Assembly: GCA_964276515.1 (NCBI GenBank)
Contig: OZ193909.1
Location: forward strand, 18,786,001 to 18,850,000
DNA length: 64,000 nucleotides
Direction: 5' to 3'
Origin: Gordius albopunctatus
Taxonomy: Eukaryota
In this document: positions 20,702-64,000 of the stretch, in pieces
How positions within the stretch are numbered: position 1 is the stretch's first letter
Layout: each line of letters opens with the position of its first letter
The notes under the pieces: model-generated
Seen by the model: the letters and a program-made list of their open reading frames with translations, nothing else
Databases searched by the model: none
What the model was told of the DNA's origin: nothing
Program-made: the position numbers and the translations under genes

Positions 20702-20966
20702 CTGGTGCAAAATCTAATATGTGCAAAATGTAATAATGTAATATTCGTATTTTAGAAATTGAGACCGGTTTTCACGCATATTCATACGCATGTAATATGT
20801 ACTAAAAAAGTACGTAATAAAAGGGTACACTATAATTGTTAATTGAAACAAAATAAGTTATATCAAAATGTATAATACTATTTTATAAATAAATACATAT
20901 TATCAAATAAATCACTAAATCTAACCCTTGCCTATATTAGATTTTGCACATATTACATTTTGCACA
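20702..20966. mobile_element. Small inverted-repeat element
   Basis: GTGCAAAATCTAATATGTGCAAAATGTAATA at the left end vs TATTAGATTTTGCACATATTACATTTTGCAC at the right end; no clear TSD. Confidence 0.55.
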
Positions 20967-26659: not shown

Positions 26660-27120
26660 TTTACAGGTGCTAAATTAAAACTTTTTCAACTACATTTTGG
26701 CCAAAGGTCATTTTTTGTATTGGTTAGCAGACAGCGGACAGTCTATAAATTCATAAGAGTCAAAAAAACGGAAAAAAAGTTTTCAACTCACATTTTGGCC
26801 AAAGGTCATTTTTTCCATTGGTCAGCAGCCAGGACACGGTAAAAGTGGATATAAATTCATAAGAGTCAAATAAACGAAAAAAATAATTTCGATTCACATT
26901 TTGACCAATGGTCATTTTTTCATCGATCAGCATCCAACGGACATCCAAAATGTCTTATTATCAATCGTAGTAACAAGAACAATCATAAGAGTCAAAAAAA
27001 CGCCGGGATTCGAACCCAAAAACTAGTTAAATTAATAATAATAATAAAAGTAAACAAGACGACACCGAAGAGCGTAACAAACAAAATGCAAAAGTGAGCC
27101 AATAAATTGCATAGCAATTA
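26660..27120 (-). mobile_element. Partial Helentron/DINE-like element
   Basis: Same TTGGCCAAAGGTCATTTTTTCCATTGGTCAGCAGCC units and terminal ATAAATTGCATAGCAATTAA as 30681-32146. Confidence 0.7.
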
Positions 27121-27705
27121 AAACTTACAACTAATTATTAACTATCATTATTTTTAATTTTAACAATAATTTAAATGAATTTCAACCAATTTTTGGATTT
27201 AGAGGGGGCAGCCACCCCTCTCTGCCCCCCCCCATCTGGTTACACTCATGGGGCGAGACGTCAAGATAGCAAATTAATCAATACCAATACCCCCCACCCC
27301 TGTTATCATCGTCATATCTTCACGATAACTACTAATAAGAAATGCGATTGATAACTTTTTTATTTTCTAATATACATGTAATCGAGGTAATTTCCCTTCA
27401 GTATAATTACAGTTATTCCAGTCATTACTTGATATAAAAAACCGAAAAATTCACTGAAAAACACGCACTTTGAAGGTAATATCGAATTACAGTGACAAAA
27501 AATAGAGATATATATATCGTAAATTATTTAAAAGTTGTTTACTCTACCTCGCCCAGACGCATGTTGACCCGTCAAAATAGTAAATAATAGGAGCTACGAC
27601 CGACATATAATATCGCAAAAGATGGGAAAAATTACGTATACCTTTATCGAAGTAAAAGAGACATTTTTATTATAATTTTTCAATCGCTTCCAGTAAAATT
27701 CTATA

Positions 27706-28012
27706 ATGGATTTCGAGAATAAAACGTCAAAATCTAGTGATTCTACAGAATTGTCATCTTCAAGTCAAGCCATGTTCTTGATCCATAGCCAATTCATATT
27801 TACACCAATTTATTGCCTACTCTTTTTGGTAGGCCTCGTCGGCAACGCGCTCGTGATTTTGGTCGTTTTCAGGGATAGGACCATGAGAAATTTCACCAAT
27901 ATATACTTGGTTAATCTAAGTACCGCCGATTTATTGATACTTCTAACCTGCATGCCCACAGCGCTGGCTGATTTGTTTTCGCAAGAAATCTGGATTTTTG
28001 GAAAAACTATGT
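27706..28012 (+). CDS. ETHR-like GPCR first coding exon A (N-terminus, TM1, TM2, ECL1)
   Basis: ATG 27706; LVGLVGNALVILVV (N1.50), MRNFTNIYLVNLSTADLLILLTCMP (D2.50), WIFGKTM, then T|GTAAGT phase-1 donor splitting the TM3 Cys codon. In frame with the acceptor at 46274 (about 696 aa product). Confidence 0.85.
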
Positions 28013-30680
28013 GTAAGTTTCATGAATTTTCTTATTACCTTACCTTCTCAAAGATTAAGAGTAAAATATATTTTAGGCATCTTAAAAATAGGAATTTCAT
28101 CCCCCTCTAAATCCCAAAAAAATCTTTAAAATCTAATATAATAATTATGGCTAAAATTAAAATATTATTATTTTTCCTTTTACTGAATCATTAATGTTGG
28201 TGCTCTCTCATTCAAATCCTCGCTACTCCCATGACTAATTTATAATCTAATTAAGCATCTACTATCAAAAAATTTTCCGAAATTAGAAGAAAACCTCGAT
28301 TTAATATTGGAAAATAGGTTTAAATATTGCAATTGGTTTAATTACATCTAAGAAAATCTCCTAAATTTTTGTTTTTTATATTATTTTACCGAACGTATTG
28401 TATATAACTATGTAAAAAACTTGCATAAAAAAGCTTTCCTTTAAGCGTATTAATATTTAAAAAAAAATTATTTTTCATTTTAAATTTTGTGAAAATTGGC
28501 TCATCCTATATTTTTGCCATTTATATTGGTAAAGTAGTTAAAACTCATCGACCTGGAAATTAATTAATTAATTTTTTTGACTTTGCTTCCTCATAAATTC
28601 AATGTCAAATCCCTTAAAATTAATTAAATCTATCCTTTTCTGTTTAGTACGGTTTTGAAATTTTTTCAATGTTTACATCGTTAATTCTTCTCAATTTTTA
28701 TTATTTTTTTATGGAATAAAATAAATTTCTATTTCACAGCTTAATAATTAAAAGTCTTTTTGAAAATTTAAATATGTTTTCTCAGTTTTTTTGTAAATAA
28801 CGCTCTCTATTAAAAATATTATTGGATTTTTGTATGTGTATTGTTAAAAATGTAATATTATTTATATTATACCGTTAAATAAACTAAAATCCGAAGGATG
28901 GGCTTACAAAAAATCTATATTGTACTATTCCAAAATTTAGTATTAATAAGCTTATAATTTATGCTAGAGAATAAATAGCTTTCAACTTGTGCTTTCTTCA
29001 CTTTATGGGCCAAGATGAAAAAATTATGATTGCCTTTTAATGCCGTGAATCAATTATAGATTACGATTTAAATTTTCTTGCTTTTACGGTTAAATAAACA
29101 ATTAACTCACAATCAATAAATTAGAAAAATAAAATTTAATTAAATTGATTATTTTCGAAAATCTAAAAATAAAAAAAATTATTTATTCTTTGTTGTAATA
29201 TTAAAGATCCGAAACTAAAAAATCAATATTACACATTATTCTTAAAAGTAGTAATTTTAAAGTATTATATTTTAATAATATGTGTATTTTATGCTAGTTT
29301 CTAATTAAAAATATCGTTGCAAAATTATTTGCACATAAATTTATTTTTTTATATTTTAAAAACTAAATGTAAGTTTTATCTTATAAAGGGATATTTTTCT
29401 ATAATAACCGGCTAATTTTACAGTTTTTATTTGCAATAACATGTTAAATTATTAAGCGTTTAAAGAAATAGGGGTCGGGTTCTCATCTCATCGTATCTTA
29501 GCTAATAAAGACAAATGACGAGATCTTAATAAACGAAAACTTAGTTTAAAAACTTAACTTTGTGTTTGGATGAGAAATAGACTATGATTATTCAATAATA
29601 CACTATTAAAAGAGTTATTCCATCGAAAAATCTGTCTTTTACGGGTATATCGGTCAGATTGCCATTTTTTTGCATCCTCTAGGTTTTTTATAAGAAAACA
29701 ATTATGGATTTTAGTTGGTAAACACTAAAATAGAAGAAGTATAGCCCTAATTGGGCAATAGAGATTTGAGGGGGGGGGGGCAAATAGTGAAAAGTTAAGG
29801 GATTTATCCCCCCTAACAATGCTAACTAGCCCCGGGCATTTTTAAAATTTTTAGGATTTTTTATGCGTTCGAAAGAATTTATAAAAAATGAGCTTTTTTT
29901 CCAATTTTTATTTCCCTAGTGGATATAGACTGTAAAAATATATTTCAATAATAAAATAATAAAAAACTTTTTTAGTGTTTTGAAGCGTGATTTAATTTTT
30001 CATGGCTATTTAGTCCCCGGTCTTCCCTATTTATAATTCTTTCATAGTCTAATAATACAATGAGCACTGCTGAATGCTGATATTATTAAGCAAGGGGTAA
30101 AAGTCGCATATTTGAGGCTATATTAACAAACTTGACTATAATCCCCCAAAACTTTCCTTGTTTAAAGTTGTAATTCTATACGCAATTAACAGTGAACTCG
30201 AAGTAAAAAATCTGTAAAAAATTGTGCAATCTACGTTAAAATGCTGGAAAATAGTTTCATTTTTGGAAAAAATAGCACACATTATGATGAAATTCGTCAT
30301 TTTCGTTATTTCCATTTATTTTTGTTATACACCACAAAATCAATACCTTTTTATATTTCCATGCGTAAAATTTGAATGGGGATATCCTAATACTTAATTA
30401 AAAGAGCAAACAGAGAAAGCCCGTATCCAGCTGCTGGATTAAGTGTATTAGCGGTGTGTTTTAGTCATGTTTAATTAGTGGATTTCCCCCCCCCAACTTA
30501 ATGTCGCGACCCTAAAGCTCATTATAGCTAAGCCACATTTCAATTAGCAGAGTTGATGACACTTTACATACAAAACATTATTTAACCTCGTTTATTTCCG
30601 TTCCTTTTTAAGATTTCCAAACATAATAAACTCCAAAAAGTCGTCCAAATTTGTCAACAATCATAATTATTAGTTTATAT

Positions 30681-32146
30681 TAAACTCGGGCCTTCGGCCC
30701 TCGTGGGAAGGGGGAAGGGGAGGAGGGGAGGGGAGGGAAGGGGGAACTCATCTACACTCCGTATAAATGTATCATATTTGCTATGCAATTTATGGGCGAG
30801 AAAGGTGGGAAGGGGTGAGAATGCCTATAGGCGGGGGGGGGGTATTAAATGTAAAATAATTAGTTAATTATTAATACAATAAAACACCACAATGTTAAGA
30901 ATTTGCAGAATTGTTGGGAGAAATTTTTTGTTGAATTTGAACAATTTTTAATTAAAAAAATCAAAAATTTGGCCAATGGTCATTTCTTCTGCATTGGTCA
31001 GTACCAACAGATACTCTATAAGTCAATGATAGCCAAAAAAACGGGAAAAAAATTTTGATGCTCACTTTGGCAAATGGTCATTTTTTCCCATTGGTCAGCA
31101 GCCAGCACACGGTAAAAGTGGATATAAATTCATAAGAGTAAAAAAAAACGAAAAAAAAATTTTCGAATCACATTTTGGCCAAAGGTCATTTTTTTCCATT
31201 GGTCAGCAGCCAGGACACGGTAAAAGTGGATATAAATTCATAATAGTCAAAAAAAACGAAAAAAAAGTTTTCGAATCACATTTTGGCCAATGGTTATTTT
31301 ATTCCATTGGTCAGCAGCCAGCGGACGGCAAAAAGTCAATGGTCATTTTATTCCATTGGTCAGCAGCCAGCGGACGGCCAAAAAGTCATAATAGCAATGG
31401 TAGGAACAGGAACAATCATAATAGTCAAAAAAAACGAAAAAAATATTTTCGAATCACATTTTGGCCAAAGGTCATTTTTTTCCATTGGTCAGCAGCCAGG
31501 ACACGGTAAAAGTGGATATAAATTCATAATAGTCAAAAAAAACGAAAAAAAAGTTTTCGAATCACATTTTGGCCAATGGTTATTTTATTCCATTGGTCAG
31601 CAGCCAGCGGACGGCAAAAAGTCAATGGTCATTTTATTCCATTGGTCAGCAGCCAGTGGACGGCCAAAAAGTCATAATAGCAATGGTAGGAACAGGAACA
31701 ATCATAATAGTCAAAAAAAACGAAAAAATAAACTCGGATACACATTTTGGCCAATGGTCATTTTTTTCATTGGTCAGCAGCCAGCGGACGGCCAAAAAGT
31801 CTTATTATCATTGATAGTAACAAGAACAATCATAAGAGTCAAAAAAAACTCCGGGATTCTAACCCAAAAACTAGATAAATTGCATAGCAATTATTAAAAA
31901 GTATAGGGTAATTATCAATGTTAACCTATTCAAAAACGAACAAAAAATTTCGATTTATTTGGCCAATGGTAATTTTTTTCAATGGTCAGTAGCCTGCGGA
32001 CGGTCAAAAAGTCATATTATCAATGGTGTTAAAACAATATATTAATTTAATTTAAAAAAAGCTGGCACCAATAACTTGGTGGATGGACGACGGACAGACG
32101 GACGACGGACAACCAAAAACGAGCCCATAAATTGCATAGCAATTAA
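30681..32146 (-). mobile_element. Helentron-associated/DINE-1-like non-autonomous element with expanded central tandem array
   Basis: Perfect 20-bp subterminal inverted repeat TTGCTATGCAATTTATGGGC (30778-30797) / GCCCATAAATTGCATAGCAA (32123-32142); hairpin GGGCC-TTC-GGCCC (30688-30700) at one end; GGAC/AGAC microsatellite (~32085-32110) near the other; T/A-rich flanks and no TSD. Confidence 0.7.
30965..32020. repeat. Complex tandem array with 286-bp higher-order period
   Basis: About ten copies of the core GGCCAATGGTCATTTTTTTCCATTGGTCAGCAGCCAG. Near-identical blocks are offset by 286 bp (ORF-track starts at 31283 and 31569 are identical). Confidence 0.9.
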
Positions 32147-32466
32147 TAATCAATGAAAAAACTTTTAAAAATTAAAAAGAATTAGGTTTTACCCTGATTG
32201 AACTTTTAAAAGTTTCGCCCACCCCTATTCCAAAACCTTGCTAAGCCCAGGAGTCTAGCTAATATTTGAATTATAGAGAGGATAACACATTTTTGGAAAT
32301 TATTTAGGGAGTAATAAAATGAAAATATTTTGAATTTTTGACCATAAAATTATTAAAAATATACGCAAATTATATAAATATACGCTTAATAATCCAATTC
32401 TCAATTTGAAACACCATGGGCATAGCCAGCAGAATTAGGATTATAGGAGGACAATAATGATAATTT

Positions 32467-34052
32467 AGTCGAGGCTATATCATCTCAGTGTATTCTGGAT
32501 TTAAATGTTTGGTATCTCGACGACGCCACCCTATGTGGCCGCCCGGAGGAGATCAGTAAAGCTATACAAATTATCAACAATTTTAAACCCACTCTGAATC
32601 TTACATTAAACTCGAAAAAATGTGAAATCTTTCAGGCCCCCAACACTATTGACTTTCCAATTTTTAAACCTTTTTTAGTTTTAGAGAAGGAAAACATATC
32701 CCTTTTGGGATCACCCATTGGCGGTGAAAAATCTCTCCTAAATTTTCTTCATAAGAACCTTGAAATTTTAAAATCTAAAACGGAACTTTTAAAATGCTTG
32801 CCAGCGCATCACTCATTTTACATAATCAAAAACTATTTTAACATCTCAAAGATTAATCATTGTTTTCGCTCATCTGGCGCATTTTTACACCTAGACGTTT
32901 TAAAGTCGTACGAAGGCTTTTTAAAAACGTTATTAGAAAAAATTTTAAATTTAAAATTTAATACTAACAATTGGATTCAAGCATCCCTCCCAACCAAATC
33001 TGGAGGATTAGGAATTCGCCCTCCCGGCAGCATATCGCTAGCCGCTTTTATTTCCTCTTTTAAGTCGGTCCAAAACTTAATTTCTAATCTCATAAAACAT
33101 GATTCCGACCCCCTGCTAACTCAAGCCTCGGAGCTTTGGAATTTGAATGTCACACCCGAGACCATCCAACCTCAAAGTACGAGACAAAAGGATTGGGATT
33201 CTGGACTAGTATCGCGCTCCGTTGATTACCTCTTATCGAGCAGCGATGATAGCCAGCATTACAACCTTAGGTCCCTCGCTTTTGACGGTTCCGGTCACGA
33301 GTGGCTTGAAGCCTATCCCAGCAAACTTTTGGGAATGCTGCTTGAAGACTTTGAGCTATCATATTCCATAGCTTTAAGGTTGGGGATTAGTTACAGCAGA
33401 GAATTCAACTGTCAAAACTGCTTTACCGTTGTAGACGAATATGCTAGGCACCCTCTACACTGCCTAGCAAACAAATATAAATACGTTAGGCACACTAAAG
33501 CTAATTTATTAATTCAAGCTGCCCTTAAAAAGGCCAAAATCCCCTCAATCCTTGAGCCGTCAGATCCCTCTCTTGAAGGTAGGATGCGCCCTGACGGCTC
33601 TTCTCTAGTCCCCTGGCAAAATGGCCTATCCCTCAAATGGGATTTTACTTGTATTGACCTTTTTGCACCTTCCCATTTTAATTACGACCCTATCGCTACA
33701 GAAGAAGGACGTAAAACTACAAAGTATTCCGCCCTTTTGGCATCCAATATTTTTATCCCTGTCGTTGCCACGTGCTCTGGTTCCTTTGGAAAACAGGCAA
33801 TGGGGTTTTTTAAAGAAATCGGAAAACGCACCCCGAAATCTAAAATTTCTGCGTCCTTTTTACTCAGGCAACAACTAGGGATTCTTGTTGCACGATACAA
33901 CTTTAAATCATTTGCCGACTCATGGCCCATTTTAGAAGAGAATGATATAAATCTTTGTATTTAACCAATATGTCTTTATTTTTGTATTTCGCTTATTAAT
34001 GTAACTTTGTTTCTTGAAAATAAACTTTTTAACAAAAAAAAAAAAAAAAAAA
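32467..34052 (+). mobile_element. 5'-truncated CRE-like (RLE-type) non-LTR retrotransposon, intact reading frame to stop at 33964
   Basis: Frame is open from ~32465: NVWYLDDATL (RT catalytic motif), LNSKKCE, LLGSPIG, ASLPTKSGGLGI, IALRLG, CQNC-x9-HPLHC zinc knuckle, RH, RPDG, WDFTC, EGRKTTKY, FIPVVATCSGSFG (PD-D/ExK endonuclease). Short 3' UTR, AATAAA ~34019, A19 tail 34034-34052; possible AATTT TSD. Confidence 0.92.
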
Positions 34053-34622
34053 TTTTGGAAGGGGCAAAAGAATCATTATTTGAAATTTCAGTCCTATTTA
34101 TATTAAATTTTAAAGCTTTTTTGGATTTTGAAGGGGGAGCCGCCCTCCCTGCCCCCCCCCTAGCTACGCCCGTGCCTCACATAATAATGCGCTATAATAT
34201 TCAATTATTCAATCTTAACCTATAAATAGTGTTGTAAAAACGGCTTGTTTTTGTTGATTCGACCTTTGGTTTTAGTCGATTAGCATCCATTTTCATTTTC
34301 GACTTCAAGGCTTAGTCGAAATTTGAAGAATAGACCAAAGGCCAACCAAATAAAACCCTGGAATTTTTACAGCACTACCTATAAAAACATGCTAAAATTA
34401 GGAGGCGAAGATCTAAGGCTTTAGCAAATAAAAAGGGGCTGCTAAACACACTGAGATAATTGTCCCATTTGGTGCAAACATAGGGAGGGATTAACCCTTC
34501 ATCAATCACGACAGGCGGGAAGAGATTTGTGTTAAATGCCATTCCACAGGATTAATAAGTCTCAATTACTGTATTTTGGTAGTAGCCCCTAATCAAAGGG
34601 TCGGGAACCCAGCTCAACTATA

Positions 34623-35226
34623 TTAATTGCTATGAAATTTATGGTCTCGCTTTTTTTGTCCGTCCGTCCGTCAACGTTCTTACACCGTCTTTCAAGACTT
34701 TCTGGTTCAATCCCCGGAGAGGACAAATTTTTTTAAATTAAATTAATATTTTGTTCTTGTTAATACCATTGATTATATGACTTTTTGACCGACCGCTGGC
34801 TACTGACCGATAAAAAAATGACCATTGGCCAAATTGTGAATCGAATTTTTTTTTTTCGTTTTTGAATTGGTATATTAGGTTAACATTGATTATTACCCTA
34901 TGCCCTCCCCTATAAGGGCCTATGCCTCTACTAATGTGGGTTCGAATCCCACAGGGGGCAAATTCTTAATTGCTGGTTCGACACCCGGAAAGGACAAATT
35001 TTTTTTAATTAAATGGAAATTTTGTATAAATAATTAACTAATCATTTTCCATTTTATACCCCCCTAACCCTATAGGCATTCTCGCCCCTTCCCACCTTTC
35101 TCGCCCATAAATTGCATAGCAAATATGCTACTTTTATACAGAGTATAGAAGAGTTTCGTTCCCCCTTCCCTTCCCCTCTTCCCCTTTCCCCCTTTCCCTT
35201 TCCACGAGGGCCTAAGGACTGAGTTT
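34623..35226 (+). mobile_element. Helentron/DINE-like element, opposite orientation to 30681-32146, with a single repeat unit
   Basis: TTAATTGCTATGAAATTTATGG, then (GTCC)n, inverted GCCCATAAATTGCATAGCAA at 35103-35122, a C-rich tract and decayed terminal hairpin GAGGGCCTAAGGACTGAGTTT. Contains T-arm-like GTGGGTTCGAATCCCAC. Confidence 0.7.
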
Positions 35227-37235
35227 TTATTTTTTAATTTAAAAATGCTTTGGTCTAAGTTATTTTAATGTTTGGTATCATGGGTGTAGCCGGGGGGGGG
35301 GGGGGCAGGAACGGGCGGCTGCCCCCTTCAAAATCCAAAAATTTGTTGAAATTTATTAAAATTCATGGTGGCTAAAATTTTAAAAAATGTTTTTTATTTT
35401 GCCCCTCCCTAAATCATTATTCCTCTAATTCCAATGCTAGCTACGCTCACGCTTGGAATTAACAATTCTTATGACAGACACCCTTAGAAATTTTTTAATG
35501 TTAAAATGCTTTTATTCGGTAAAATTGATACATGAAATATACAATAAACGAGCTTAAAATAATATTATAAATAAAAAAAATTATTCATCACATTCGTCAA
35601 TAGCCAACACAGGGTGATTTATAACGGTTGTCTAAAGTCCTGCAGACTTTTTTCCAACCAGAATCCGATCGGATTAATAAGACTTGATCCAAACTTATTA
35701 TCTTAAATTATAAAAAACTAAACTTTACATCCATGATATTATGTTAAATGCAGCGGCTTTTAGATTTTTTCCCCAAAAAATTTCTAGGAAAAATATGAAA
35801 GATACAGGCCAAACCTAAACCCCGCTCAAAACTAGTTTTTATTTAATTTACCAAACTTGAAGAAAGTGTCGAGTTTAAGTCTTAGGCTTAATTAAAAATC
35901 AAAATTGTAATTTCTTAATGTTTAGGAAATACAATAAATTTAAAAAATAAATAAATTATTAATCAATAAATATGCACACGTTAATTAGAAAGCAGTTAGG
36001 ATATGACTTTTATCAGGCCATATCATTAAGGTTCCCATTTCAAAACTTATTATATACAGTCTCATGGGAGTAGCCAAGGGGGGATAGCGAGGGGCTACTG
36101 CCCCCTTCAAAATCCAAAAATGTGTTAAAAATTATTAAAATTATGGCCAAAATTTAATAAAATGATCAGATGTTTAGTCTTTTAGGCCCAAGCCTATTGG
36201 AAATTTATTTTTATAATAAATAAATATGGGTAAACTTGGAAAAAGTTTTTATATTACAACTCGAGCTTTAAGCCTCAAAATGGATTAAATAATCAACCAC
36301 GGGTCTGGTCAAGATTTTAATTTGTTAAAGTTATTGATAAAGATTTATGAAAGGGTAAAATGATGTCTTTTTGAGAATTTTAATGTTCACTTTAAATAAA
36401 ATAATTTTTAATTTTTATGGGTTATGTGGTAGGCAGGGGTTAGCAGAGAGGGGTGGCTGCCCCCTATAAATCCAAAAATTCTTCAAAATTAAATATATTT
36501 ATGGCCAAAATTAGTGAACAATATCATTTTGCCCCTCCGTAAATCATTATTGCCCCCCCCCTCTATATCCAATCCTAGCTATTTTTATTTTTAATTGAAT
36601 ATGTATAGAAACTATATTTCTAATTTTCCACTACTTTTCTCTAATTTTTTTCATAATATTATACTTTTAACATGGTAAAAATTTTAAAAAAACTCTTTGT
36701 AAACTGACTGTCATATGTCAAAAAACTTTTTATTTCGAAAAAATCCAAAATTAAATCTCAATTTCATTTTTTAAGCTAATTTTGTTAAAAAATTTCCAAA
36801 TTCTATTATGTTAGTGTATTATTTAGAGAAATGCACACGCTAAACCATGGTTAGTGATCTTCAATATCATTGGGGGCCTTAATCACTTGCACCTCGTTTT
36901 TTAATCACAAATTTTAATAAAAATTTCATGATTAATATTAAATCATGATAAAAAATAGTAAAAAAGGGTATATAATACGTCTAGATTTTCTTATACTTAG
37001 CCCCTTTGATTTTTGAGCGATGGATCCTAAAATTCATTTTAATCCATCTTACATTGGATAAATATTTATTTTTTCGTGTTTTAAACGAATAATAATGAAT
37101 CTTTACAAGATATGAGAATTGATTCCCGTTTTATATTACGATTTTTTTGACATGCTAACCTTCGATTAACTATAATAAGTTACAACTTAATCTAATTTAA
37201 CTAGCGATTTGTTGCTCCTCTCAGGCTATCAATAC

Positions 37236-37438
37236 TAGAGTTGTTAAATTGCTAACTTTCTTCAACTCCAGCTCCCATCTGCTCGAGTTTCTGCTCGGTC
37301 CTCGAGCATTTTTATATGCTACTGCTCCGCCTAGTGCACCAAACAGCGAGCACATATTGTGATAACGCGCATATTAAGCAACTCAGTGTGCGTGCTCGCG
37401 TCTGGAGTTTGAAGAAAGTTAGCAATTTAACAACTCTA
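37236..37438. mobile_element. Young hAT-type MITE
   Basis: Perfect 30-bp TIR TAGAGTTGTTAAATTGCTAACTTTCTTCAA and perfect 8-bp TSD ATCAATAC (37228-37235, 37439-37446). Confidence 0.92.
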
Positions 37439-38334
37439 ATCAATACCACTAAACTAACGTTAAATTTAAAATAATTTAATGTGTATAACGAATTTTAATG
37501 CTTTAAAAGAAGTGTAAACTAATTTGTAGAAATTAATTTTCTATCGTTATTTATAAACGAGGACTACTTTTTGATTATTTTTTTAGTAGACCAAAAGTAA
37601 AATATGTTATTTAAAAATATAAAAGGATGGAAATAATAATATATATTTCCAAAATAAATTAAATCGATTGTCTTTAATTTTTAAAATTAAATTAAATGAA
37701 TCAAATAATATTATAACATTTAATTTTAATTAAGTTGCTAATTTTTATTGGTGGTAACTTAAATCTGTAACCCAGGTGCAGTTTTACGAGACAACACCAC
37801 AACTTCCAAAATGACATTTAATCCATTTCAATCAAGCAGCAAACAATTCGAGGTTTTTTAAATTAATTAATGTCAGTAAAAGAAAAGTTTAATTTTATTT
37901 AATTAAATTTTCATGGGTTTCTGTTTAAAGAAATATCTTCTATTTTATGAATCTTACCATAGCTATGTCCGAAATCATAATAAAATAAGGGAAAAGTAGT
38001 TATTTTTTTGTTAAAGATTGACCAATTTATTCAATCTCATATAATAAAAACGTCAAAGAAATCAATTTAACGCACCAAAATTGCTCATTTCTTGTTTTAA
38101 ACTCCTTGAAACTTTAGTTATTTTTAAGATCTCGAGACGAAAAAAAACACACGTAATTTTGGGAAATAATTGGTAATAAGGTGACATTTTTATTAGATTT
38201 GACAACTCAAGATTTTACAATCTTACCATACTAATTTATCACGTCTACAATCTATAAAAGCATTGTCCTTTTCATCGATTACATAGCAAAAAATATTATT
38301 ATAAATAATTATATTTTTCTTTATCAACTATTTG

Positions 38335-38505
38335 GTCTTCATCCATCTTGATCGGGTGAGGATACCATGTCTTGATCAATCTTCTTCGATTTCATAACTT
38401 TGTCCACGTGCCCTTTCCACGTGACACGAGGTCGTCATCTTCCTCGGTACCTCCATGTCCAGTACTTTTCGATTTCTTCTTAATATATGCCCATATCACC
38501 TTAGC
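38335..38505 (-). mobile_element. Short 3' fragment of the RTE family
   Basis: Reverse complement AATCGAAAAGTACTGGACATGG...TGTCACGTGGAAAGGGCACGTGGACAAAGTTATGAAATC matches ~10830-10950. Confidence 0.8.
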
Positions 38506-39872
38506 CCAATAATACTTAAGATAATTATAATCTAAGATTAAATTAATAATAGCGTCTTTAATATATAATTATTAATTATTATGCAACTAAAAGTAAAAAA
38601 AAACATCGATTAATCTAGTATGTTTTCGGTATAATATTATTAAGTTTTTGCTTGTAAATTATATTAATTAAACCATTAATTAATAGTGTAATCTTATTTA
38701 TTACAATTCATAATTAACAAAATCCTAGTTGGAGTAATAGTATTCCCCTATCAATTTGTTTAGAATTAATTAGCTAAGATCCTTATCACATCAATAACTT
38801 ATATCATTTATTTAAAGATAACTTCTTTTTTGGAGTCAAAAGACGTAATGCCGCCAATCCTTTAAACAATTGTTTATAGAATTGCAAAAATATTTATTTT
38901 TCATCGGTGACAAAGGAAAAATGATATAGTCTTCCTCTGGCCTTAGCTATGGATTTTACCTATTAAAATGCTAATTGAATTAGATGGTAAAGAAAGTAAG
39001 AGATATTACCATAAATTATAGTTTAGTGTGCTTGGCATAAAAGAAGAGTAAACTTATTTTTCACTTTTTATCCACATGTAAGGTTGAAATCTATTTCATT
39101 TATATATTATTAATATGACATTCATGACTAGTTATGAATGTCATAATTATAATTTATTGAAATATTAAAGGATTTTTTGGATTTAGGGACTGAACACTTC
39201 CTTTTCCTCATTCCACTTTGGCTAAGCTTACGTTTGACAAGCTTCCTGTATCTGCATAAACTTTATAGAAAAACTCCTTCTTTTTCCCCTGAAATAAGTT
39301 TAATAATTGTTATAAAACATATATGATGCGAAGAGAAATGAAATAAATAAAAAAGTTAAGTTTGTGAATATTTGGAAAACATTCAGAGGGATGTTTATAA
39401 AATGAGTTCACGATTATCATGGGATAGCAAAGAAATTTGCTATCAAAAAAAAATAATTTAAAGGTTTGGGGCCAATGGCTTTAAGTCATGGGCACATGAA
39501 AGGTGGGGGGGCAGAGAGATTTGTTGAAATTTAGTAAAATTATGGTGGCTAAAATTTGAAAAAATGTTCATTTTTTCCCTCTCTAAATCATTATTTCCCC
39601 CTCTAATTCTAATGTTGGCTACGCCCATGATTTAAGTAATTATCGCAATGGGAAAATTTTCACTATTTTAAAAATTCGAGTGCCCCTGATGAAGAGAGAT
39701 TTAAATAAATAGAGGTCTTGGGGGAAAATATGAAAAGCATGTTAAAATTTTTTATTTTTGTCAATAATATAATCTAAACTTTTATTTAAATTCTGCTTAA
39801 AGATTTTTGCTTTAAAAATAGCAAAATACTTTGAGATCAAAATTAGATATCATTTCCTCATCTTAGGTTCCT

Positions 39873-40882
39873 TAGTGATGCGGAAAAACCGAGAAAAATC
39901 TCGGCCTCGGATTTTGAAAATTTGAGTCGAGATAGAGACGAGATTTTATCGGCGAGATCTCGACTTTAATTTTTATCTATTAAGTCTTCATCTAGCTAAT
40001 TAAGAATTTTTATTTTATGAGATTTAAATTTAGGGTATATAATGCAAATTAATATGATTTCGAAACTTTTGATAGTAATTACTTACGCACCTAATTATCC
40101 GCTTCGCGCAAATTTCTAATTTGCAATATAATCTTAATAGACATAGTGTTAGTAGCCCTTTGGGTATTTGTTACTTATTTGTATAGCTTATATAATATAA
40201 AATTATTTAGACCTATAATGAGTTTATGCGCATCAAGTTCATCATCCAACACAAAAAAGAGCAAGCTGCTCAAACATTTTACAGTATCCAAGGATGAATC
40301 AAATAAATTGGAGAATTGTAAATTGTGCTTTAAAGAAAATTTTATATTTAAAGTTATATATGTGCAATTAATGTAAGATCTCAAAACTGTTATGCTCTTC
40401 CAACAGAAATGCCTATTTTATTGTATTTACAATGTTAAGATAATTACTTGTTATTAATAATGATATCTTCAAAAGCTTACTCTCGCATTTTTGTCATTAT
40501 TTTAACGTTATTATATAAGATCTCAATATATTCATTATGTTTGAATATGATGATATTATTAAGTTTTATCCTTTTATTGAGCCTTAGCCAGGAAATGAAA
40601 GTTATTGTTTAGCAACTTTATACCTTCGAGGCAAAAGTAGTATATATAACACCTCCAATAATGCTTCCTGCCTCAAGATACCTATCTAGCTTGTGTTTTG
40701 GGGTTTGAGATAAAAAATTGGTTCCATTATGACCAATTTATATCTTATATAATAATTTATAAGAGTCAGAAAAAATATAAGATATAATTATTTTTAAAAG
40801 TCGAGACGAGAATTCTCGTCGAGACGAGACGAGATCGAGATTTTAATAATTGCACCCGAGACGAGACGAGATCGCAACACTA
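39873..40882 (+). mobile_element. Non-autonomous hAT element with GAGAC subterminal repeats and BED remnant
   Basis: TIR TAGTGATGCG / CGCAACACTA; 8-bp TSD AGGTTCCT / AGGTTCTT; ORF 40146-40376 contains KKSKLLKHFTV...NCKLC (decayed BED finger). Confidence 0.82.
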
Positions 40883-42248
40883 AGGTTCTTTATTTATGGA
40901 CTAATGGCTGGAACATAAATAAACATTTTGCGTAATAAGTAATTACTTTGAATATTTATTTAGTATAAATATAAAGTAATATATTTGTTTAATATATTTA
41001 GCAACCATGTTTTTTTTCCTAAAAGTTTAATCATTAATAAATTTTACAAATATCGTCAAAAAATTCTAATATTTTATAAGGGTAACTTACATATTACATG
41101 ATACTATACACCAATAAATAACATAAAAAATTGTATTTTATTACAGTTGTATTGATACTCAAGTTTTTTGTATAAAAATTAATTTTAAACATTATAAATG
41201 GTTTTGTAAAAGATAAATCTTTAAATTAAAAAAAGTATAAATTAATAAAACACATTAAAAATCGTAACATAAATCTTTGAGCTCCATTAAACCGTAAATA
41301 AAAAGGGCTTGCTTAAACAAACTAATTATAAATTTTAACGTGAGATAAGCAATTAAATAAACGTGGCATAAGGCTTTTTGCCTAAAGTTTCTAGTTTGCG
41401 AAAAGCAGATTAAAATAAATTTTAGTTAATTGAATGTTATACATGTACATAAAGTTTTGATTAAAATAGCACTTAGCTAATATTAAATTTTACCTGTCAA
41501 TTTCCAATTTTGGGGTTAAAAGCGTTATTCATTAAAAAATTTCAAGATTTTGTAATAATTAATCATACTCTTTTAGCCTTAAATATTCTAAAATTTACTT
41601 AATTACATAGTTTATAAACTTCTTTACAATAATATTTATCTCTACTTTTAATATAATCTTATGCAGTAAGGCCCGTACATACATGCAAAATGAAGAATAT
41701 GTCGCGTCATACAAAAAGATATCACATTGCTTTACTAAACTTGTTATTAAAATCGATTGATATTCAATTTGTTGATTTAAATATATTGATTTCTCGTATT
41801 AGGCACATTGGCATTGACTCTCTTAACTGCAAAGAGGTGTTAAAATTTTCCACAATGCTCTTTTAATAAAAAATTATTTTATTTTTTTCTTCCGGAGTAA
41901 GAGGATGCGAATTAATGAAAAGCTATAATTAAATTTAATATATACTTCGCCTTTTCAATGCCAACGTTAATTTTATTCTTTTGCTGCTAGTGGATCATAA
42001 ATATTCATTTGGTATTGCTAACTTTTCACTTCCCTAAGCCTCACGACATCACTTTAAATTATAATGATCAAGACCCTTGCAAAGGCATTGTGACACGCAC
42101 GCTTTATAATAATACGGGACCAGCATATCACGATATCCCCAACTTGGTCCAAAGTTTATAGATATCCATACCATATATAGATGAAATCTGGATTTAGACC
42201 TTGAAATCTGGCACTAATTATTTATAATTTATCTAACATCCAATTAAC

Positions 42249-45200
42249 ATGTCACATTACTCCAAATTGAGTTCACACCTCGGGGCAGTTAATAGGACCT
42301 TTGCTCGTGTCAACCCTACCAACAGATCATATGTTTATTACGGCCCAATCAGATGTTTTAACGAATGCGTGAATGGTTCTTTGCCACCTGATCTACTAAT
42401 ACCAGAAGATTTATTGGTCGGGCTAACTTCATTGTACCTAATTCTATTCTTGGTGGGGGTATTTGGAAACACATTGATCATATATGTCACTTTCGGCTAC
42501 GAAGAAATGCGAAGTTCTCATACCCATTTATATTTAGCTAATTTAGCTATAGTGGATATATTACTTTTGTTAATTAATGTTCCACTAGGGCTTATTGAGC
42601 TATACGACCAAGATATATGGTATCTAGGGCCTAATTTATGTAAGTACTAATAGCCTAAACAAAATTATCAAACACTTAAAGCTTATATCTGTTCAAATAT
42701 CTATTCTTCTCATTTTACCTCTGTAGTTATTGCTACTCAATTTCTTAAAGCTTACTAAAACTTTTAAATGTCTCTCTTTTTCTGTTTGCGAAGATTTGGG
42801 TAATTGAGATCAAAGTCATTATAATAGATGGTCTCTTATTAAAATCCAATATTTCTATGTTGGACAATCAATTAAATATTTAACGACAAAATGGTCCTGT
42901 ATATTAATAATAATTCCTTCGTGTCCGCTTGGGGCTTTTAGAAGCCAATAATGAATGTTTTGTTATTATTTTGATTCTTATTCACAATTTAGTTAGTAGA
43001 TTATCAACAAAATAGCTACAATGTTTTGCAATAGGATCTAATGATTTGATACATTTTCTAACTTGACGCTTGCTTTGGAAGTCAGATTAAGTTTACATCT
43101 TTAGCATACTAATTTAATGTGCATCGTCAAAGTTGTGATTTACCAACTCTTTAGTGAACCTTAATTTGTTTTATTTGGAGAGCGTCAAAGGAAACAGCTT
43201 CCTTGCCAATTTCACGAGCTTTGATTTAAACTGACTTTGTCCTAGTGCCGATCATAAGTCCGATTATCTCAAAGAATATAGAAATCTACATTAACTTAAG
43301 GGGGCACTAGTCGAATAATCATATTTTTTGTTTTATTAACTTACTTGCTGTTACTAAAAAAATAACAACACGGTCAATTTAACAAATGCATAATAGACCA
43401 GACTAAGAAACTGCTAAATCTCATTTGAAAAGTGTTTCGAATTTGGCATTCCTATTGCTCATCCAATTTAGATGGCAAGGAAAATGCTTATAATGATATC
43501 GGATTTTCCTTATATAGCTATTATCACATAGATATAGGATATTATTGACTTAAGCCTTTTAAATTAAAATACAGAGTAAAAAGAAATTAATACCTTTGAA
43601 GAATACTAATATTTTATGAATAAAATTTGATTTATAGAGCCATCTATATTTAAGCTCTTTTTAAATTAAATTCTATTTAAGAAATTATAGAAGTACTCTT
43701 ATGAAGAGAATGAGTTTTAAATATTATAATATAAATTTTTTTTAGAAATTACAACCCGTATCATTATGGTCGTTTTTAATGAGTCTTTTGCGATTTTGAT
43801 AAATACATATGTTTAAGTTTGTTTTTTTTTTGACATAAAGCTTACGTTCATTAAAATTGTTATAAATTCTAAATATAGCATAGCATTATTAATTTAATAT
43901 TAATGATATATATAATTGTAACAAAATATCTTTGTTTTATGTTCTATTTTTGAAATTTCAGGACACACGCATTTTCCTTTTTAAGCATAAATGGATTTTA
44001 AGAGAGGTAATTCTATAATTAGAAACCGGTAAGTCGCTTTTTGTAATGAATATTGCGGTTTTACGACTTTGAGCCTTTATGGTAAAATCGATTAGTCTAT
44101 TAGACACGAAATCACCATCAATTTCTTGATACCTCATTGAAGGTTAAACTAATATTTTTTGTAACTTATATTCAATAATAGGCATTATAAGAATAATTGA
44201 AATATTTTTATTCATTTTACTTTAATAACTGACTTTAATTAATCATCTGATATTACTAATTGCCTTCAAAGACATGGACGTAGCCAGGATCGGATTTAGA
44301 GGGGGGGGGCAACAATGATTTAGGGAGGGGCAAAATGTTAATTTTTTAGCAATTTTAGCCATAATTGTATTAACTGTTAAACATTTTTTTGTATTTAGAG
44401 GGGACAGCCGTCCCTCCCTGCCACCCTCTGACTAGGCCGATGTTCAAGGAACTACTAAATCTTTAGAATAAACGTAAAAGTGTCCATTCGATTATATAAG
44501 AAGTTTGGTTTTTTATGAACTCGTCGGATCTTTATTTTTTCCATTTCTTAAATAAAAAGCTGGAAACGGGCTTATATAAAAATTAAAGGCAGTAAAGTTT
44601 TGGCTGGATATTAAGGTGATTTATATGTTTTCTCTATAAGGCTAACGCGAAAACATTTAACCATATATTTTTCTGCTTATCTGCAGCACAAAATAATAAT
44701 TTAATCAACCATAGCAACAGTTTTGGTGGTGATAAAGTATAAATTTGCATTTTTGTATCAATATCAATGTGTCATTGATGAGTGCGAAATTGGCAAACTA
44801 TATTCCAATCCACGCCTCTTCTATAAATTTAAGATAAGTTTCCCTCTATTAAATCATTTTATATCAAGTTAGGTATCTACAACCAATTTAAACTTAGTAA
44901 CTTTAATGTGTTTTTTTTCCAAGGACAATACCATCTTAACAAGTTTTATCAATCACAAATATTTTGCTAGAATTCAATCGCACACATACAAAATTTTTGG
45001 TCGCGAACCCATTTTAAAATACCGATATAAAGTTATTATAAAATATAATTGACTTTAGGTAAATATGACTATATTGCTCTTTATTTAGTTATGACTTAAA
45101 GTATTATAAGATTTATTGGTTAAAATCTATTAATATGTCTGTAACGAATGGATCATATGTCAGCCGGGTTAAAAGTTAATCTCAGTATTAAATTAGGTTA

Positions 45201-48057
45201 TGGCTCTGGAATACAAATTGAAATTAATTATTAAAAAATAATAGAAAAGAAACAATTGGATTACTTTCCCACACTTCATATAATTGATCTTTGCAATCTT
45301 ATTAAATATGTTATCCGTCAAATATTTACAAAAAATTTATTATATTTAGATGATAAATGTATATGTAATATTGATAGGAACTTTATTTACAAATTAAAAA
45401 CTAAAATTGTGAGATTTATTTAAAAAGTAATATTTATGTACAAAACGTGGTATACAACATAGATTTATAAGTCAGATAATTAATCGTAGAGCATAATTAT
45501 CTTTCATTCCCTATGGATTTTTTGTTTTTATAGATTATTTCATTTGTAGACTAATGTATATAAGTTTTTTGTTGTTAATATTAAATGGCTTTGAGGAACG
45601 TCATGTTTTGACTTTTAGATATGACAGACTTTTAATAGTCAATATGGTAAAAGATGTGCTTATCAATAAAATTTCAGAGAGCCGATGTTGGTTTGTTGCT
45701 ATGACGTTTGTCACCTAATAAAAATGTCTCATCGTTTTGACCTTTGTGGCCGATTTACAAATGTTGACTTAATTATGTTTGGATGACTTTTCAAGGACCA
45801 AATTTATCGAATATCAGCACAACAAGAAGATAAGGGTTATAAATATAATAGTTCGTGTCTCATCCGTGTTGATCATTTTATTGCTTATTGTATTTAACTC
45901 CATCACTTCACTATAATGATGAATTAATTATCTAGTACTTGCTTAGCATTCATGTTTGATTTGATTCTTCTATTATTATTATCAAAAGATATAATGTAGA
46001 GATAATAATTATATATTTTTTGTGGCACATAATAGGTATGCTTCGCCTAATCTTTTTACAATGAGTATTTATAAAAAATAAACCTAGCCATGTTAATTAT
46101 TATATAATGATATATGACTCAACAGCATACATAATTTATTGAGTTTCGAAAATTAATTAAGATTCATTGTTTCTATAATGGATTCGGCTCAGGCCATGAT
46201 ACCTCGTCCTAACTTTTTATTGCCTTTGATGTTTATCTTGCAATAAATCTTTAACATTTTTCGCTTATTATAGGCAAAGCGGTTCCATTTTTACAATCAA
46301 GCGTGACGCAAACTTCAGTGCTGACAATACTAGCCATCAGTTTCGAACGATATTATGCAATATGTCACCCGCTCAAGGTTAAGAGATATGCCGGCACCAG
46401 CGTTTCTCGCACTCTCAAGTTTTTGATATTAATATGGGCATTATCGCTTTCTATGAGCACACCTTACGTTTATATGACGCAATATCTACTGGCAACACAT
46501 CAAAATGGTAAAACAGTTCCTGTATGTGTGACTTCGCTTCAAGCGCGTTGGGAGCAAAATTTCTTCTTAAGTAGCGTTACGCTATTTTATCTTTTACCGC
46601 TGATGATACTAGTCGTATTGTATGCCAAGATTGTAAGGGTCTTGACTCTAAGTCGGAACATAGGAAATACGGTTGCTAGATTAACGAGAAAAGCCGATAG
46701 AAAAACTATGAAACAAAGGGGACAAACTCGACATGGTGGTCAAGGTAGTAGCGATACATCTTCCGGGCTTCTTCCAAGTTCAAACTTAGTTTATGAATTA
46801 CCCGGTGGGAGCATGTGTAATGGAATTGTAGCTACGAAGAAAGGAGGTTGGCTACGACAGAAAAATTGTGGTTTGAAAAAGTTTGCAGCATCGAAAAAAG
46901 TGAAATTAGTAGACACTGTAAGCTATGAAACTGAAAAAACTAGGGCAAATAAACGAATAAGTTTGAGCGAACATTGTACCATAGCATTGATCAAGGACCC
47001 GTCGTTGAATATTTCAAATCGTGGATGTGATATATGCAGTCCCATAGTTAGCAATATGAAAAGTTTTGTCCCACTTGAAATAACGATGCAGGATTGTTTT
47101 TCTGCGATTAGATATATAGATAGTGTGTCACAAAAAGAAAGTTCTGACTTAATAACATCCCGAGCCGAAATAAAGTCGTTAGACAAAACCTCCAATCAAC
47201 ATACAGGAAATTCTTCTTATAAACCGAAATCTCAATTTTGCCAATATTGTGGATCGGAGAAAGAAAGCGATGATGTTAAAAATAGCGCACAACCACCAAA
47301 AATAAATAAAAAAATTCTATTTAAAAATCGGAACGTTAATTTGTCATCACTTTTTAACCATCAATCAACGGAGCAGCAGAGAGATATTACAAAACATCCT
47401 TTAAGGCAATCTATGATGGAAGAAGAATCTCCGTGCAATGTTCATCATTTCAAAAAAAATCCATCTAGAAATGTCCAAGCTTATAATAAAAATTCAAAAA
47501 AATCCACATCTCATTTATCGAGAGGCAAAGATCGTTTAAGAAATGTCAGTCGATTTATTAGAAGAGCAGCTCCTTCTCAACTATTGCACCCCAACACTGA
47601 AATTCCTTCCTCGAGGTCGAGGTGTCATTCTAAGCCTAAGCACAATGCCATTAACAAAGGCCGTACCCAACTAGTCGGTATGTTAATAGCCGTTGTATTC
47701 ATGTATTTCGTTTGTTTACTACCGTTTCATTGTCTCAGCATATGGCTAACTTTCGTTCCCCATACCAGAGTAATCTCACTAGGCATCAAAACGTACACTA
47801 ATATTTTGTGTTTTACACGTGTCATGTACTATCTGAACAGTGCAATAAACCCCATACTATACAACGTTATATCCACGAAATTTCGCCACGCCTTTTCCCG
47901 AGCTTTGGGTTGTGGTAAAAAACGGAGTAGGAGAGCAACATTTAGAGCAACTATGGTCGGCGAAAGATCTAAATATTTGAGTGAAATACAGAGTAGCCAA
48001 TACGTAACGAGTTATAAAGAAGGGGTTCGTTTTGGTGGAACCGTTCGCTATAACTAA
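42249..48057 (+). CDS. ETHR: Ecdysis-triggering hormone receptor-like class A GPCR (exon B 42249-42639 joined to 46274-48057, about 724 aa)
   Basis: Exon B: LVGVFGNTLII, LYLANLAIVDILLLLINVP, WYLGPNL-T|GTAAGT. Acceptor TTATTATAG|GC at 46274 gives CKAVPFLQSSVTQTSVLTILAISFERYYAICHPL; TM5 LFYLLPLMILVVLYAKI; TM6 FVCLLPFH; TM7 RVMYYLNSAINPILYNVISTKFRHAF. These match recalled arthropod ETHR motifs (CKAVPF..ASVLTILAISFERYYAIC, CLLPFR, YLNSAINPILYNLMSxKFR). Confidence 0.88.
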
Positions 48058-52052: not shown

Positions 52053-52740
52053 ATGCCTAAATATGAAATAGCTCTAATTTTAAAAATTATGAATAAAGTA
52101 ATTAATATATTATAATTATGTATCTCTTAAGACCGAAACAATTTCAGTATTAAAACGCGTTGGAACGAGTCTTTTAGATAAGAAGGGAATTATAACAAAT
52201 CTGGAGAACCTCGGTACTAAACCACTACCATACATCATGAATGCCAATAATCAAAAACACAAGAAAGGCCAGTAAGCTAAACATTTATTTTTAAAAATCA
52301 GCACAAAATTAAAGAGTCATGATGAATGGTGAGAATGTATCAATTAAAATTGTTTAATAAAATTTATTTATTTTAAATTATTTAATCACTCAAGTACAAA
52401 TTAAAATTTTATTTTATTAAATATTTTTAGATATTTTACATGGGAATTTTTTTTTTCACCAAATTCCATTACTGATTTTGAAGAAGAGCTATCTCGTGAT
52501 ATAGATATCATTAGATCAATGGTAGTTTCCCTTGATAAAGCCCAGGAGAAACATGAGATTTCAGCTGAAGCCTGGAAAAATTTAAAAGGACCTCACAAAA
52601 AGATGAGAGACCTTCCACGGCCTCTGCATTGTACTCTGCCTATTGAAAAGATGTTACCTGCATTACGTAATGAACTTAGGGATTATCCTAGATGGCAAAA
52701 GGCTGTCATAAATAAAATACATTATCCATCAAAAAATTAG
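52053..52740 (+). CDS. MRPS6: Mitochondrial ribosomal protein S6 (bS6m)
   Basis: Exons 52053-52097, 52132-52271, 52431-52740 give MPKYEIALILKIMNK-TETISVLKRVGTSLLDKKGIITNLENLGTKPLPY...GQYFTWEF...ELSRDIDIIRS, matching MRPS6 (MPRYELALILK, LENLGERALPY, LSRDIDVIR). Confidence 0.95.
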
Positions 52741-53587: not shown

Positions 53588-54429
53588 CAGAGGTCAGATC
53601 TGTTTAGAATTTTCTGCCCGAACCCGGCCCCATTCAATTTTTAACTTCATTTACCGCTCGAAACCATCTGAGTGTCCGCTAGGGCCCGCCCGAATCGTCT
53701 AGCTCGAAATATTAAATTTGCCCGCTAGACCCGAATTTATGCAATCCCAAAATCTTTTAACCGCTATTAAAAATGGATACACAATTTTAATAGATTAATG
53801 GCTAATGCATTTAGGTTATACTTACTTTACTATAGAATATAATGGAGAAAATTTTTATACGAAGCAAAAAAAATGGTTGTGAATTAATTTTGTATAATAA
53901 AAATAAGTAAAAGCGCAGATAAGGGAATATAAAGGGCGAATGAAATGGTGCCAAAAAAGAATATGGAAATTAATTATAGAAATTAGGAATAATTAATAGC
54001 GTAGATTAGGGAATAAATAAAGCGGATTGAGCCAAATTTTATTTGTTAAAAAATGAATTCGAAATAAATACTTATATGTGCATACATTGTGTGCAAATGG
54101 CATGACACCTTTGTTTTAAGTCTAGACGGCACACATGTGTATTGCGAACAATGAAATGGCTACATAAATATAAATATTTCAGTCTTTTCCATTAACGTAG
54201 CTAAGAAATCGAGTCGGGCAAAGATTTAACTTGGGGGTGGCAGCATTCGCGATATACAATCTAATAAAAAAGTAACAAGATAATACAGTATGATTTTAAT
54301 TTAATTAGGCTCGAATTGCCCGAATTTTATCAGTGTGCCCACACAAAAATAAAAATTTAAGACATTTTTCCGGCTCTGTCGGCACACAGGCCAGGGTGGG
54401 CGGGTCGCGCCGAGAATTTCTGGTCTCTG
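53588..54429. mobile_element. Non-autonomous hAT-type element with GCCCG subterminal repeats
   Basis: TIR CAGAGGTCAGA / TCTGGTCTCTG; 8-bp TSD AGAGCGGG / AGAGCAGG; related terminus at ~21385-21499. Confidence 0.7.
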
Positions 54430-63732: not shown

Positions 63733-64000
63733 GTAAATGCGCGATGTTTTGCCTTACTTCTAACTATTCCTCAAGCCCTTTGCTGGCCTCTATGGGATAA
63801 ATTAAGAATTTTAGAGTGTATTTGGATTAGAGACCCACACGGGTGACCTTAATTGTAAGGTCTCTGTGTCGGGTTCGGGTTTCAAAATTTTAAAATGCTT
63901 TCGGGTTCGGGTTGAAAAGGTGACTTTGCAGTTCTTTTTGACGCAGGCATCGGAATAGCGATAAAGTGGATTTTTTTCTGATCAAGAAGAACTGATGGAT

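What the first reader, a model, noticed from the sequence alone, without database searches (positions are those of the whole stretch)
27706..48057. ETHR-like GPCR with two swappable, highly diverged N-terminus/TM1-TM2 first exons on one shared TM3-TM7 exon
Seen: exons A (27706-28012) and B (42249-42639) each start at their own ATG and encode an N-glycosylation-site-bearing N-terminus, TM1 (GN), TM2 (LxxxD..P) and ECL1 (WxxG). Both end with the same phase-1 T|GTAAGT inside the TM3 Cys codon. The only TM3-TM7 exon I can find is 46274-48057; the 14 kb between A and B looks like transposon-rich non-coding DNA. A and B differ greatly (NFTNIYLVNLSTADLLILLTCMP vs SHTHLYLANLAIVDILLLLINVP), yet neither has a stop or frameshift. 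Known: insect ETHR-A/B share the N-terminal half and use mutually exclusive 3' exons from about TM4 onward. Inference: this is an independently evolved mirror-image system. Two promoters would give two receptors with different extracellular, ligand-facing modules on an identical signalling core, possibly differing in peptide specificity or tissue.
Basis: partly seen in the sequence, partly recalled or inferred. Interest (0 to 1): 0.88.

Follow-up and report, generated by a model that had tools for sequence, protein, structure and literature searches.

The report
Hairworm receptor with two swappable fronts
One gene for a moulting-hormone-type receptor, likely from a horsehair worm, carries two very different intact versions of its front end ahead of a single shared body, so it likely makes two receptors from one gene, the mirror image of how insects get two versions of the same receptor by swapping the back end.

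Summary
Observation confirmed. Exons A (27706-28012) and B (42249-42639) each encode N-terminus, TM1, TM2 and ECL1, end at the same phase-1 donor and join in frame to the only TM3-TM7 exon in the window (696 and 724 aa). The closest relative is a Gordionus (nematomorph) gene whose RefSeq isoforms X1 and X2 are an A-type and a B-type front on one identical body, so the layout is shared by two species. A is as conserved as the body (78% vs 72-77%); B is not (39%) yet is open in both, with a shared one-residue insertion after ICL1. Tree tests reject separate duplications in each species; B-B orthology is not shown. The gene belongs with ETH receptors, and the intron used is ancestral. Corrections: no RNA from this species was found, separate promoters are untested, most of the ligand pocket is shared, and the changes common to both B exons lie on the cytoplasmic side. 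Unchecked notes of this scan report the same design in other neuropeptide receptors. New variant of a known kind; not found in print.

The parts
27706..28012 (+). Exon A: N-terminus, TM1, ICL1, TM2, ECL1, first base of the TM3 Cys codon; conserved front
   Evidence: 56/72 identical to the front of Gordionus isoform X1
27676..27693 (+). Candidate splice acceptor (pyrimidine tract + CAG) 12 bases before A's ATG; would make A an internal exon behind a non-coding leader; untested
28013..28018 (+). Phase-1 donor GTAAGT of A
28013..42248 (.). Repeat-rich spacer between A and B with no TM1-2 or TM3-7 coding remnant
42249..42639 (+). Exon B: longer N-terminus (3 sequons), TM1, ICL1 with a one-residue insertion, TM2, ECL1; fast-evolving front
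   Evidence: 28/72 identical to the front of Gordionus X2/CAK9290318.1; insertion shared only with it
42640..42645 (+). Phase-1 donor GTAAGT of B
46274..48057 (+). Exon C: shared TM3-TM7, 335-residue ICL3, helix 8 and tail, uninterrupted

Best explanation
This is one ETH-receptor-family gene with two intact duplicated front exons and a single TM3-TM7 exon, and it likely makes two receptors by splicing either front, probably each from its own promoter, to the shared body. The front exon was likely duplicated once, at an intron that the family already had in the TM3 Cys codon, before this species and Gordionus split. A stayed the conservative form and B diverged fast. Both forms are predicted to bind the same class of peptide, because TM3-TM7, ECL2, ECL3, Tyr1.39 and the acid at 2.64 are common to them. 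They would differ in where and when they are expressed, in affinity or trafficking (N-terminus, TM2 top) and possibly in coupling (ICL1 insertion, loss of the conserved Asn at the start of TM2). Shown: exon anatomy, frames, one body in the window, both pairings annotated in a second species, ancestral intron. Inferred: splicing in this species, promoters, single duplication, ligand, functional differences.
For: Anatomy and frames. Gordionus RefSeq XP_065313569.1 (isoform X1) = A-type front + body and XP_065313570.1 (isoform X2) = B-type front + the identical body; a second annotation has B+body (CAK9290318.1) and A alone reading into its intron (CAK9290319.1). A-A identity 78% matches the body's 72% (TM3-5) and 77% (TM6-H8). 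AU tests on 20 rows reject winA+winB (p 0.035) and GorA+GorB (p 0.0025). The ECL1 motif Q[ED]IW is in all four exons, in none of the other 121 of 127 rows and in 1 of 98 further parsed rows. The ICL1/TM2 insertion is in both B exons, in 0 of the other 121 rows and 0 of 98. A neutral simulation leaves B open in 10 of 500 runs at 62% identity, indels not even allowed. Same intron in relatives: 19 of 32 TM3 matches in 80 metagenome loci have AG|G[CT] in the Cys codon, and 9 loci hold a TM1-2 exon ending T|GT[AG]AGT. The Gordionus B+body model folds as a 7TM bundle with TM1-2 at pLDDT about 95, with class A peptide receptors as structural matches.
Against: No junction was observed in this species. 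The Gordionus isoforms are predicted (XP_) models whose read support I could not see, and the authors' own annotation left A unjoined. RefSeq X2 starts at Met57 of the B frame, which could mean a 5' exon splices into B. Gordionus X1 has a roughly 95-residue N-terminus with a hydrophobic leader that the window's A lacks, and no matching upstream exon was found. The two B exons are only 39% identical, less than each is to an A exon (45-49%), and do not group in the free trees; B+B and all-four clades are merely not rejected (p 0.49/0.15; 0.45/0.26). Window B has replaced 4 of 16 near-invariant family residues, including a TM2 Cys kept in 105 of 105 relatives, which also fits relaxed selection.
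Confidence: 0.72

Rival explanations
1. Both isoforms are made, but A and B are mutually exclusive internal exons (or one is) behind a shared upstream non-coding leader, so the choice is by splicing, not by promoter.
For: Good acceptor-like site at 27692-27693 just before A's ATG; several AG candidates inside B; Gordionus X2 begins at an internal Met of B.
Against: Each exon has its own ATG in an A-at-minus-3 context with an in-frame stop upstream; TATA-like words at 27433 and 27509 upstream of A (weak); no upstream signal-peptide exon found in 11001-27700 (0 real; 1 in 20 shuffles).
Confidence: 0.15
2. Only A+C is the working receptor in this species; B is a relaxed duplicate on its way out.
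For: B-B identity 39% against 72-78% elsewhere; long end branches (2.2-2.9 vs 0.1-0.4); loss of near-invariant residues.
Against: Open frame, intact donor and exon-like GC (0.38 vs about 0.27 around it); open in both species where neutral drift leaves 10 of 500 open; 12 of 16 near-invariant residues kept against 9 of 35 variable columns (invariance partly imposed by the motif filter); B keeps the ancestral pre-TM1 Pro that A lost; best solved-structure matches of B are ghrelin and motilin receptors; both Gordionus annotations join B to the body.
Confidence: 0.07
3. Two isoforms are made, but the B exons have a different history: two non-orthologous survivors of a larger array, or a front captured from a neighbouring related receptor that lost its own body.
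For: The B exons are about as far from each other (39%) as from an annelid receptor (41-45%) and do not group in free trees.
Against: Shared insertion, shared Gly before ICL1, shared loss of the conserved Asn; ECL1 motif shared with both A exons; only two modules in the window. The test of B against the NMUR/PRXamide rows returned no answer, so capture from that group was not tested.
Confidence: 0.12
4. A is the front of a separate tandem gene whose TM3-TM7 exon is missing from the assembly or lost.
For: The whole genome is not held; the A-B gap is repeat-rich and its continuity was not checked with reads; one Gordionus annotation leaves A alone.
Against: No Ns and no second body in the window; RefSeq joins Gordionus A to the same body as B; A evolves at the body's rate, which a bodiless exon would not.
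Confidence: 0.04

Closest known systems
Gordionus sp. m RMFG-2023 gene with RefSeq isoforms X1 (XP_065313569.1, auto-named 'octopamine receptor-like') and X2 (XP_065313570.1, 'pyrokinin-1 receptor-like')
   Same: Likely orthologue: A-type and B-type fronts on one identical TM3-TM7 body, junction at the same Cys|KAVPF, very long ICL3.
   Different: Database model only, under two unrelated automatic names; its A has a long N-terminus with a hydrophobic leader; its B is only 39% identical to the window's B.
Insect ETHR-A / ETHR-B (PMC8175484 and PMC5572281, passages read)
   Same: Same receptor family; one gene, two isoforms from duplicated, mutually exclusive coding exons; in insects the isoforms answer the same ETH peptides with different sensitivity and are expressed in different neurons.
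   Different: Insects share the front and swap end of TM4 to C-terminus (3' exons); here the front through ECL1 is swapped and TM3-TM7 is one uninterrupted exon. Different exons, so separate origins.
Variable 5' exon / constant 3' exon loci: Drosophila Gr39a (PMC2204066, abstract read); UGT1 and protocadherin clusters (PMC1885805, search listing and start of abstract)
   Same: Tandem paralogous 5' coding exons spliced to constant 3' exons.
   Different: Those are not rhodopsin-class GPCRs and carry 4 or more variable exons; here 2, and the cut falls inside a 7TM bundle.
Other neuropeptide GPCR genes with two TM1-TM2 fronts noted by this scan (springtail pyrokinin/NMU-type; SIFamide-type; unchecked AI notes)
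   Same: Reported as the same design.
   Different: Other receptor families and phyla; not checked here.

Membership tests
Rhodopsin-class GPCR (Pfam 7tm_1) | 7tm_1 above the curated cut-off and an open 7TM frame for each isoform | tested here: met
   Gordionus B+body model and fold search
ETH receptor (ETHR) orthology group | Closest sequence relatives are ETHRs | tested here: met
   After Gordionus (200 bits) the 119 listed hits score 91-128 bits; 7 of the 120 are named ETHR, the rest carry other automatic names or none; receptors with solved structures reach at most 47 bits on the same stretch
ETH receptor (ETHR) orthology group | Groups with ETHRs to the exclusion of sister families in a tree | tested here: inconclusive
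   Body tree of 28 rows puts window+Gordionus (99) among arthropod, priapulid and lophotrochozoan ETHR-like rows, support only 81 against two long outgroups; no TRHR, GHSR or EFLa-receptor rows were available
ETH receptor (ETHR) orthology group | Phase-1 intron in the TM3 Cys codon, as in relatives | tested here: met
   19 of 32 TM3 matches in 80 loci; 83 of 204 stored proteins read G before K[AI]VP, the mark of reading through that acceptor. Shared, but not shown to be exclusive to ETHR
ETH receptor (ETHR) orthology group | Activation by ETH (PRXamide-type) peptides | not testable with these tools
   No ETH precursor was found outside panarthropods in PMC6660194 (passages; the word nematomorph does not occur in it)
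Insect ETHR-A/B splice system | Duplicated 3' exons from end of TM4 to C-terminus | tested here: not met
   One TM3-5 and one TM6-7 match, in one exon
Variable-first-exon loci (Gr39a, UGT1, Pcdh type) | Tandem paralogous 5' coding exons in frame with one constant exon | tested here: met
Variable-first-exon loci (Gr39a, UGT1, Pcdh type) | Each variable exon is spliced to the constant exon in RNA | tested here: inconclusive
   Both pairings annotated in Gordionus; no junction data for this species
Variable-first-exon loci (Gr39a, UGT1, Pcdh type) | Each variable exon has its own promoter | not testable with these tools
   Needs CAGE or 5'RACE; only weak motif scans

The most novel reading that the evidence does not exclude
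Hairworms re-invented the two-isoform ETH receptor from the opposite end, and the fast-evolving B form is a host-facing sensor: A serves the worm's own peptide, while B, retuned differently in lineages with different arthropod hosts, detects the host's ETH surge in the haemolymph and lets the parasite time its moult or exit. This rests only on the rate asymmetry, the parasitic life in arthropods and the reported absence of ETH outside panarthropods.
Probability: 0.07. Interest if true: 0.88.

Novelty: new variant of a known kind. Interest (0 to 1): 0.55.

Why it matters
If both junctions are confirmed, the ETH-receptor family has twice reached 'one gene, two receptors' by exon duplication, at opposite ends of the bundle, in insects and in hairworms (centipedes instead have two genes, PMC4244043 passages). 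The pair is a natural chimera experiment on what N-terminus, TM1-2, ICL1 and ECL1 add to a fixed TM3-7, and a handle on the unknown ligand of non-panarthropod ETHRs and on moult control in a barely studied parasitic phylum. With the unchecked notes on other receptors it suggests that the TM3-Cys intron is a recurring swap point that gene predictors miss or misname.

Tried and rejected
No whole genome is held, so a genome-wide search for a second body was not possible. No RNA holder listed; the two listed runs are contigs that also cover introns. Exact look-ups of the three window peptides: absent. Searches for a third nematomorph: none recognised among 120 of 152 shorter hits, 21 hits or the best 150 of 19,712 profile hits. 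Search for the same design in relatives: among 106 stored proteins with front and body only the Gordionus pairs share a body with different fronts, and 0 of 268 have two fronts while 18 have two TM7; 9 metagenome loci show one front each, but their flanks (at most 10 kb) are shorter than the 14 kb A-B gap, so this excludes little. Idea that Asp (A) versus Glu (B) at 2.64 is a special switch: dropped, since further relatives have Glu 52, Asp 45, Gln 1 of 98. Single-sequence fold of Gordionus X1: pLDDT 41, uninformative. ESM Atlas: generic class A hits only. AU tests for species-specific duplication and for NMUR affinity on the 39-row set returned no answer. Rows left out of trees: near-duplicates (80% filter, 66%), five distant outgroups, three named rows whose body was not parsed. 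Literature: 10 full-text searches; 'nematomorph' + 'ecdysis triggering hormone' + 'receptor' gave 0 papers, and no listing described a GPCR with duplicated TM1-TM2 fronts; subscription journals and supplements were not searched.
Full report
Observation. The coordinates are right. Exon A (27706-28012) and exon B (42249-42639) each start at an ATG with an in-frame stop upstream, encode N-terminus, TM1, TM2 and ECL1, and end T|GTAAGT; the acceptor TTATAG|GC at 46273/46274 opens a frame to the stop at 48057. The joins give 696 and 724 residues without internal stops. All three pieces pass the 7tm_1 cut-off. A and B share 32 of 72 residues. Profiles made from non-nematomorph relatives and run over six frames with stops read through find exactly two fronts and one body; the window has no Ns. 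The gap is repeat-rich.

What it is. The best hit to the body is a Gordionus (Nematomorpha) protein at 69% identity and 200 bits; the other 119 listed hits score 91-128 bits, are arthropod where named, and 7 are named ETH receptor. Solved receptors reach 47 bits at most on that stretch. I therefore read the window as a horsehair worm other than that Gordionus (inference from identity). A tree of the body places the pair among ETHR-like rows of arthropods, a priapulid and lophotrochozoans, with modest support and without TRHR or GHSR rows. ETHR-family membership is likely, but the ligand is unknown: PMC6660194 (passages) found the receptor across bilaterians and the ETH peptide only in panarthropods, and does not mention nematomorphs.

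The key evidence. The Gordionus cluster has four members. RefSeq isoform X1 (684 aa) is an A-type front on the body; isoform X2 (595 aa) is a B-type front on the identical body; the second annotation has B+body and, under the next accession, A alone running into its intron. These are predicted models and I could not see their read support; the genome paper (10.1101/2023.06.26.546503, passages) reports RNA-seq-guided annotation and has no occurrence of ETHR, GPCR or isoform in its main text.

Evolution. Over the last 72 residues, A-A identity is 78%, B-B 39%, and A-B 45-49%. AU tests on 20 rows reject a duplication within either species (p 0.035 and 0.0025) and do not reject B+B or a clade of all four; on 39 rows the last two again are not rejected, but the free trees do not group the B exons. 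Characters favour one origin: a one-residue insertion between ICL1 and TM2 occurs only in the two B exons (0 of 121 other rows; 0 of 98 parsed of 149 more), both lose the conserved Asn next to it, both keep a pre-TM1 Pro that both A exons lost, and all four share ECL1 Q[ED]IW (1 of 98 elsewhere). B is unlikely to be neutral: only 10 of 500 simulated neutral runs stay open at 62% identity. Against that, window B replaced 4 of 16 near-invariant residues. The intron used is old: 19 of 32 TM3 matches in 80 metagenome loci have the same phase-1 acceptor, the other 13 are contiguous at that codon, and 9 loci hold a front exon ending at the same donor (the first count was mislabelled by an off-by-one and corrected).

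How it likely works. A transcript that contains A splices from 28012 to 46274, skipping B; one that starts at B splices from 42639. If B has no used acceptor the exclusion is automatic, as in variable-first-exon loci (recalled mechanism). Promoters are untested; an acceptor-like site 12 bases before A's ATG, the internal start of Gordionus X2 and the longer leader of Gordionus X1 leave a cassette model open. In human NMUR2, Tyr1.39 and Glu2.64 contact the peptide and Thr2.39 contacts Gq (10.1101/2022.02.21.481304, passages). By counting from the GN and TM2 Asp motifs (my numbering; an NMUR-like row has the same Asp-to-Pro spacing), all four exons keep Tyr1.39 and an acid at 2.64, while the shared B changes sit around 2.39-2.40. 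I infer the same peptide class with different tuning, trafficking or coupling, as in insects, where ETHR-A and -B answer the same peptides with 10- to 20-fold differences for one of them (PMC8175484 and PMC5572281, passages). An alignment-based model of Gordionus B+body gives a confident 7TM bundle, but such models follow the family and do not prove expression.

Comparison and novelty. Insect ETHR-A/B swap the end of TM4 to the C-terminus; that feature is absent here, so this works like ETHR-A/B but is not that system. The layout is that of Gr39a (PMC2204066, abstract) and UGT1/Pcdh (PMC1885805, listing only). Ten full-text searches showed no description of this gene or of a GPCR with duplicated TM1-TM2 fronts; subscription journals were not covered. 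A nematomorph comparative-genomics preprint (10.1101/2024.06.11.598342, passages) has no occurrence of GPCR or neuropeptide. Unchecked notes of this scan report the same design in springtail pyrokinin-type and SIFamide-type receptor genes, which lowered my estimate of uniqueness; they are not support for this locus. Verdict: real, conserved in two hairworms, already present as an unnamed database model, a new variant of a known kind; interest 0.55.

Noticed in passing
window 46648-47652 (ICL3 of exon C): The third intracellular loop is 335 residues (264 in Gordionus, about 25% identical), several times longer than in the arthropod ETHRs seen, and is all inside one exon.
   Followed up: partly
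window 32447-33964 +: 505-codon open frame with a weak RVT_1 match (E 0.005), likely a 5'-truncated non-LTR retrotransposon; a short similar C-terminal piece lies at 54301-54609 on the minus strand.
   Followed up: partly
window 26683-26941 and 31035-31784: Related 106-108-base and 286-base tandem arrays on either side of exon A.
   Followed up: no
window about 58234-63846 +: Multi-exon coatomer gamma subunit gene (Adaptin_N and COP-gamma_platf matches).
   Followed up: partly
window 52405-52740 +: Frame with a weak Ribosomal_S6 match (E 0.003), possibly an exon of a mitochondrial ribosomal protein S6 gene.
   Followed up: no
window about 257-3901 -: Several helical-looking coding frames of one multi-exon gene; they recall TEX11/ZIP4 (from memory), but Pfam gave no match for the 3 frames tested.
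   Followed up: partly
proteins P0005-P0018, P0022, P0023, P0032, P0107: 18 insect gene models string the ETHR-A and ETHR-B 3' exons into one protein with two TM7, under unrelated automatic names: an annotation artefact of the known system.
   Followed up: partly
L005, L018, L019, L031, L036, L038-L041, L046, L050, L058: A 'CYLVPF'-type ETHR-like subgroup in metagenome contigs lacks the intron at the Cys codon and seems to have an acceptor two codons earlier.
   Followed up: no
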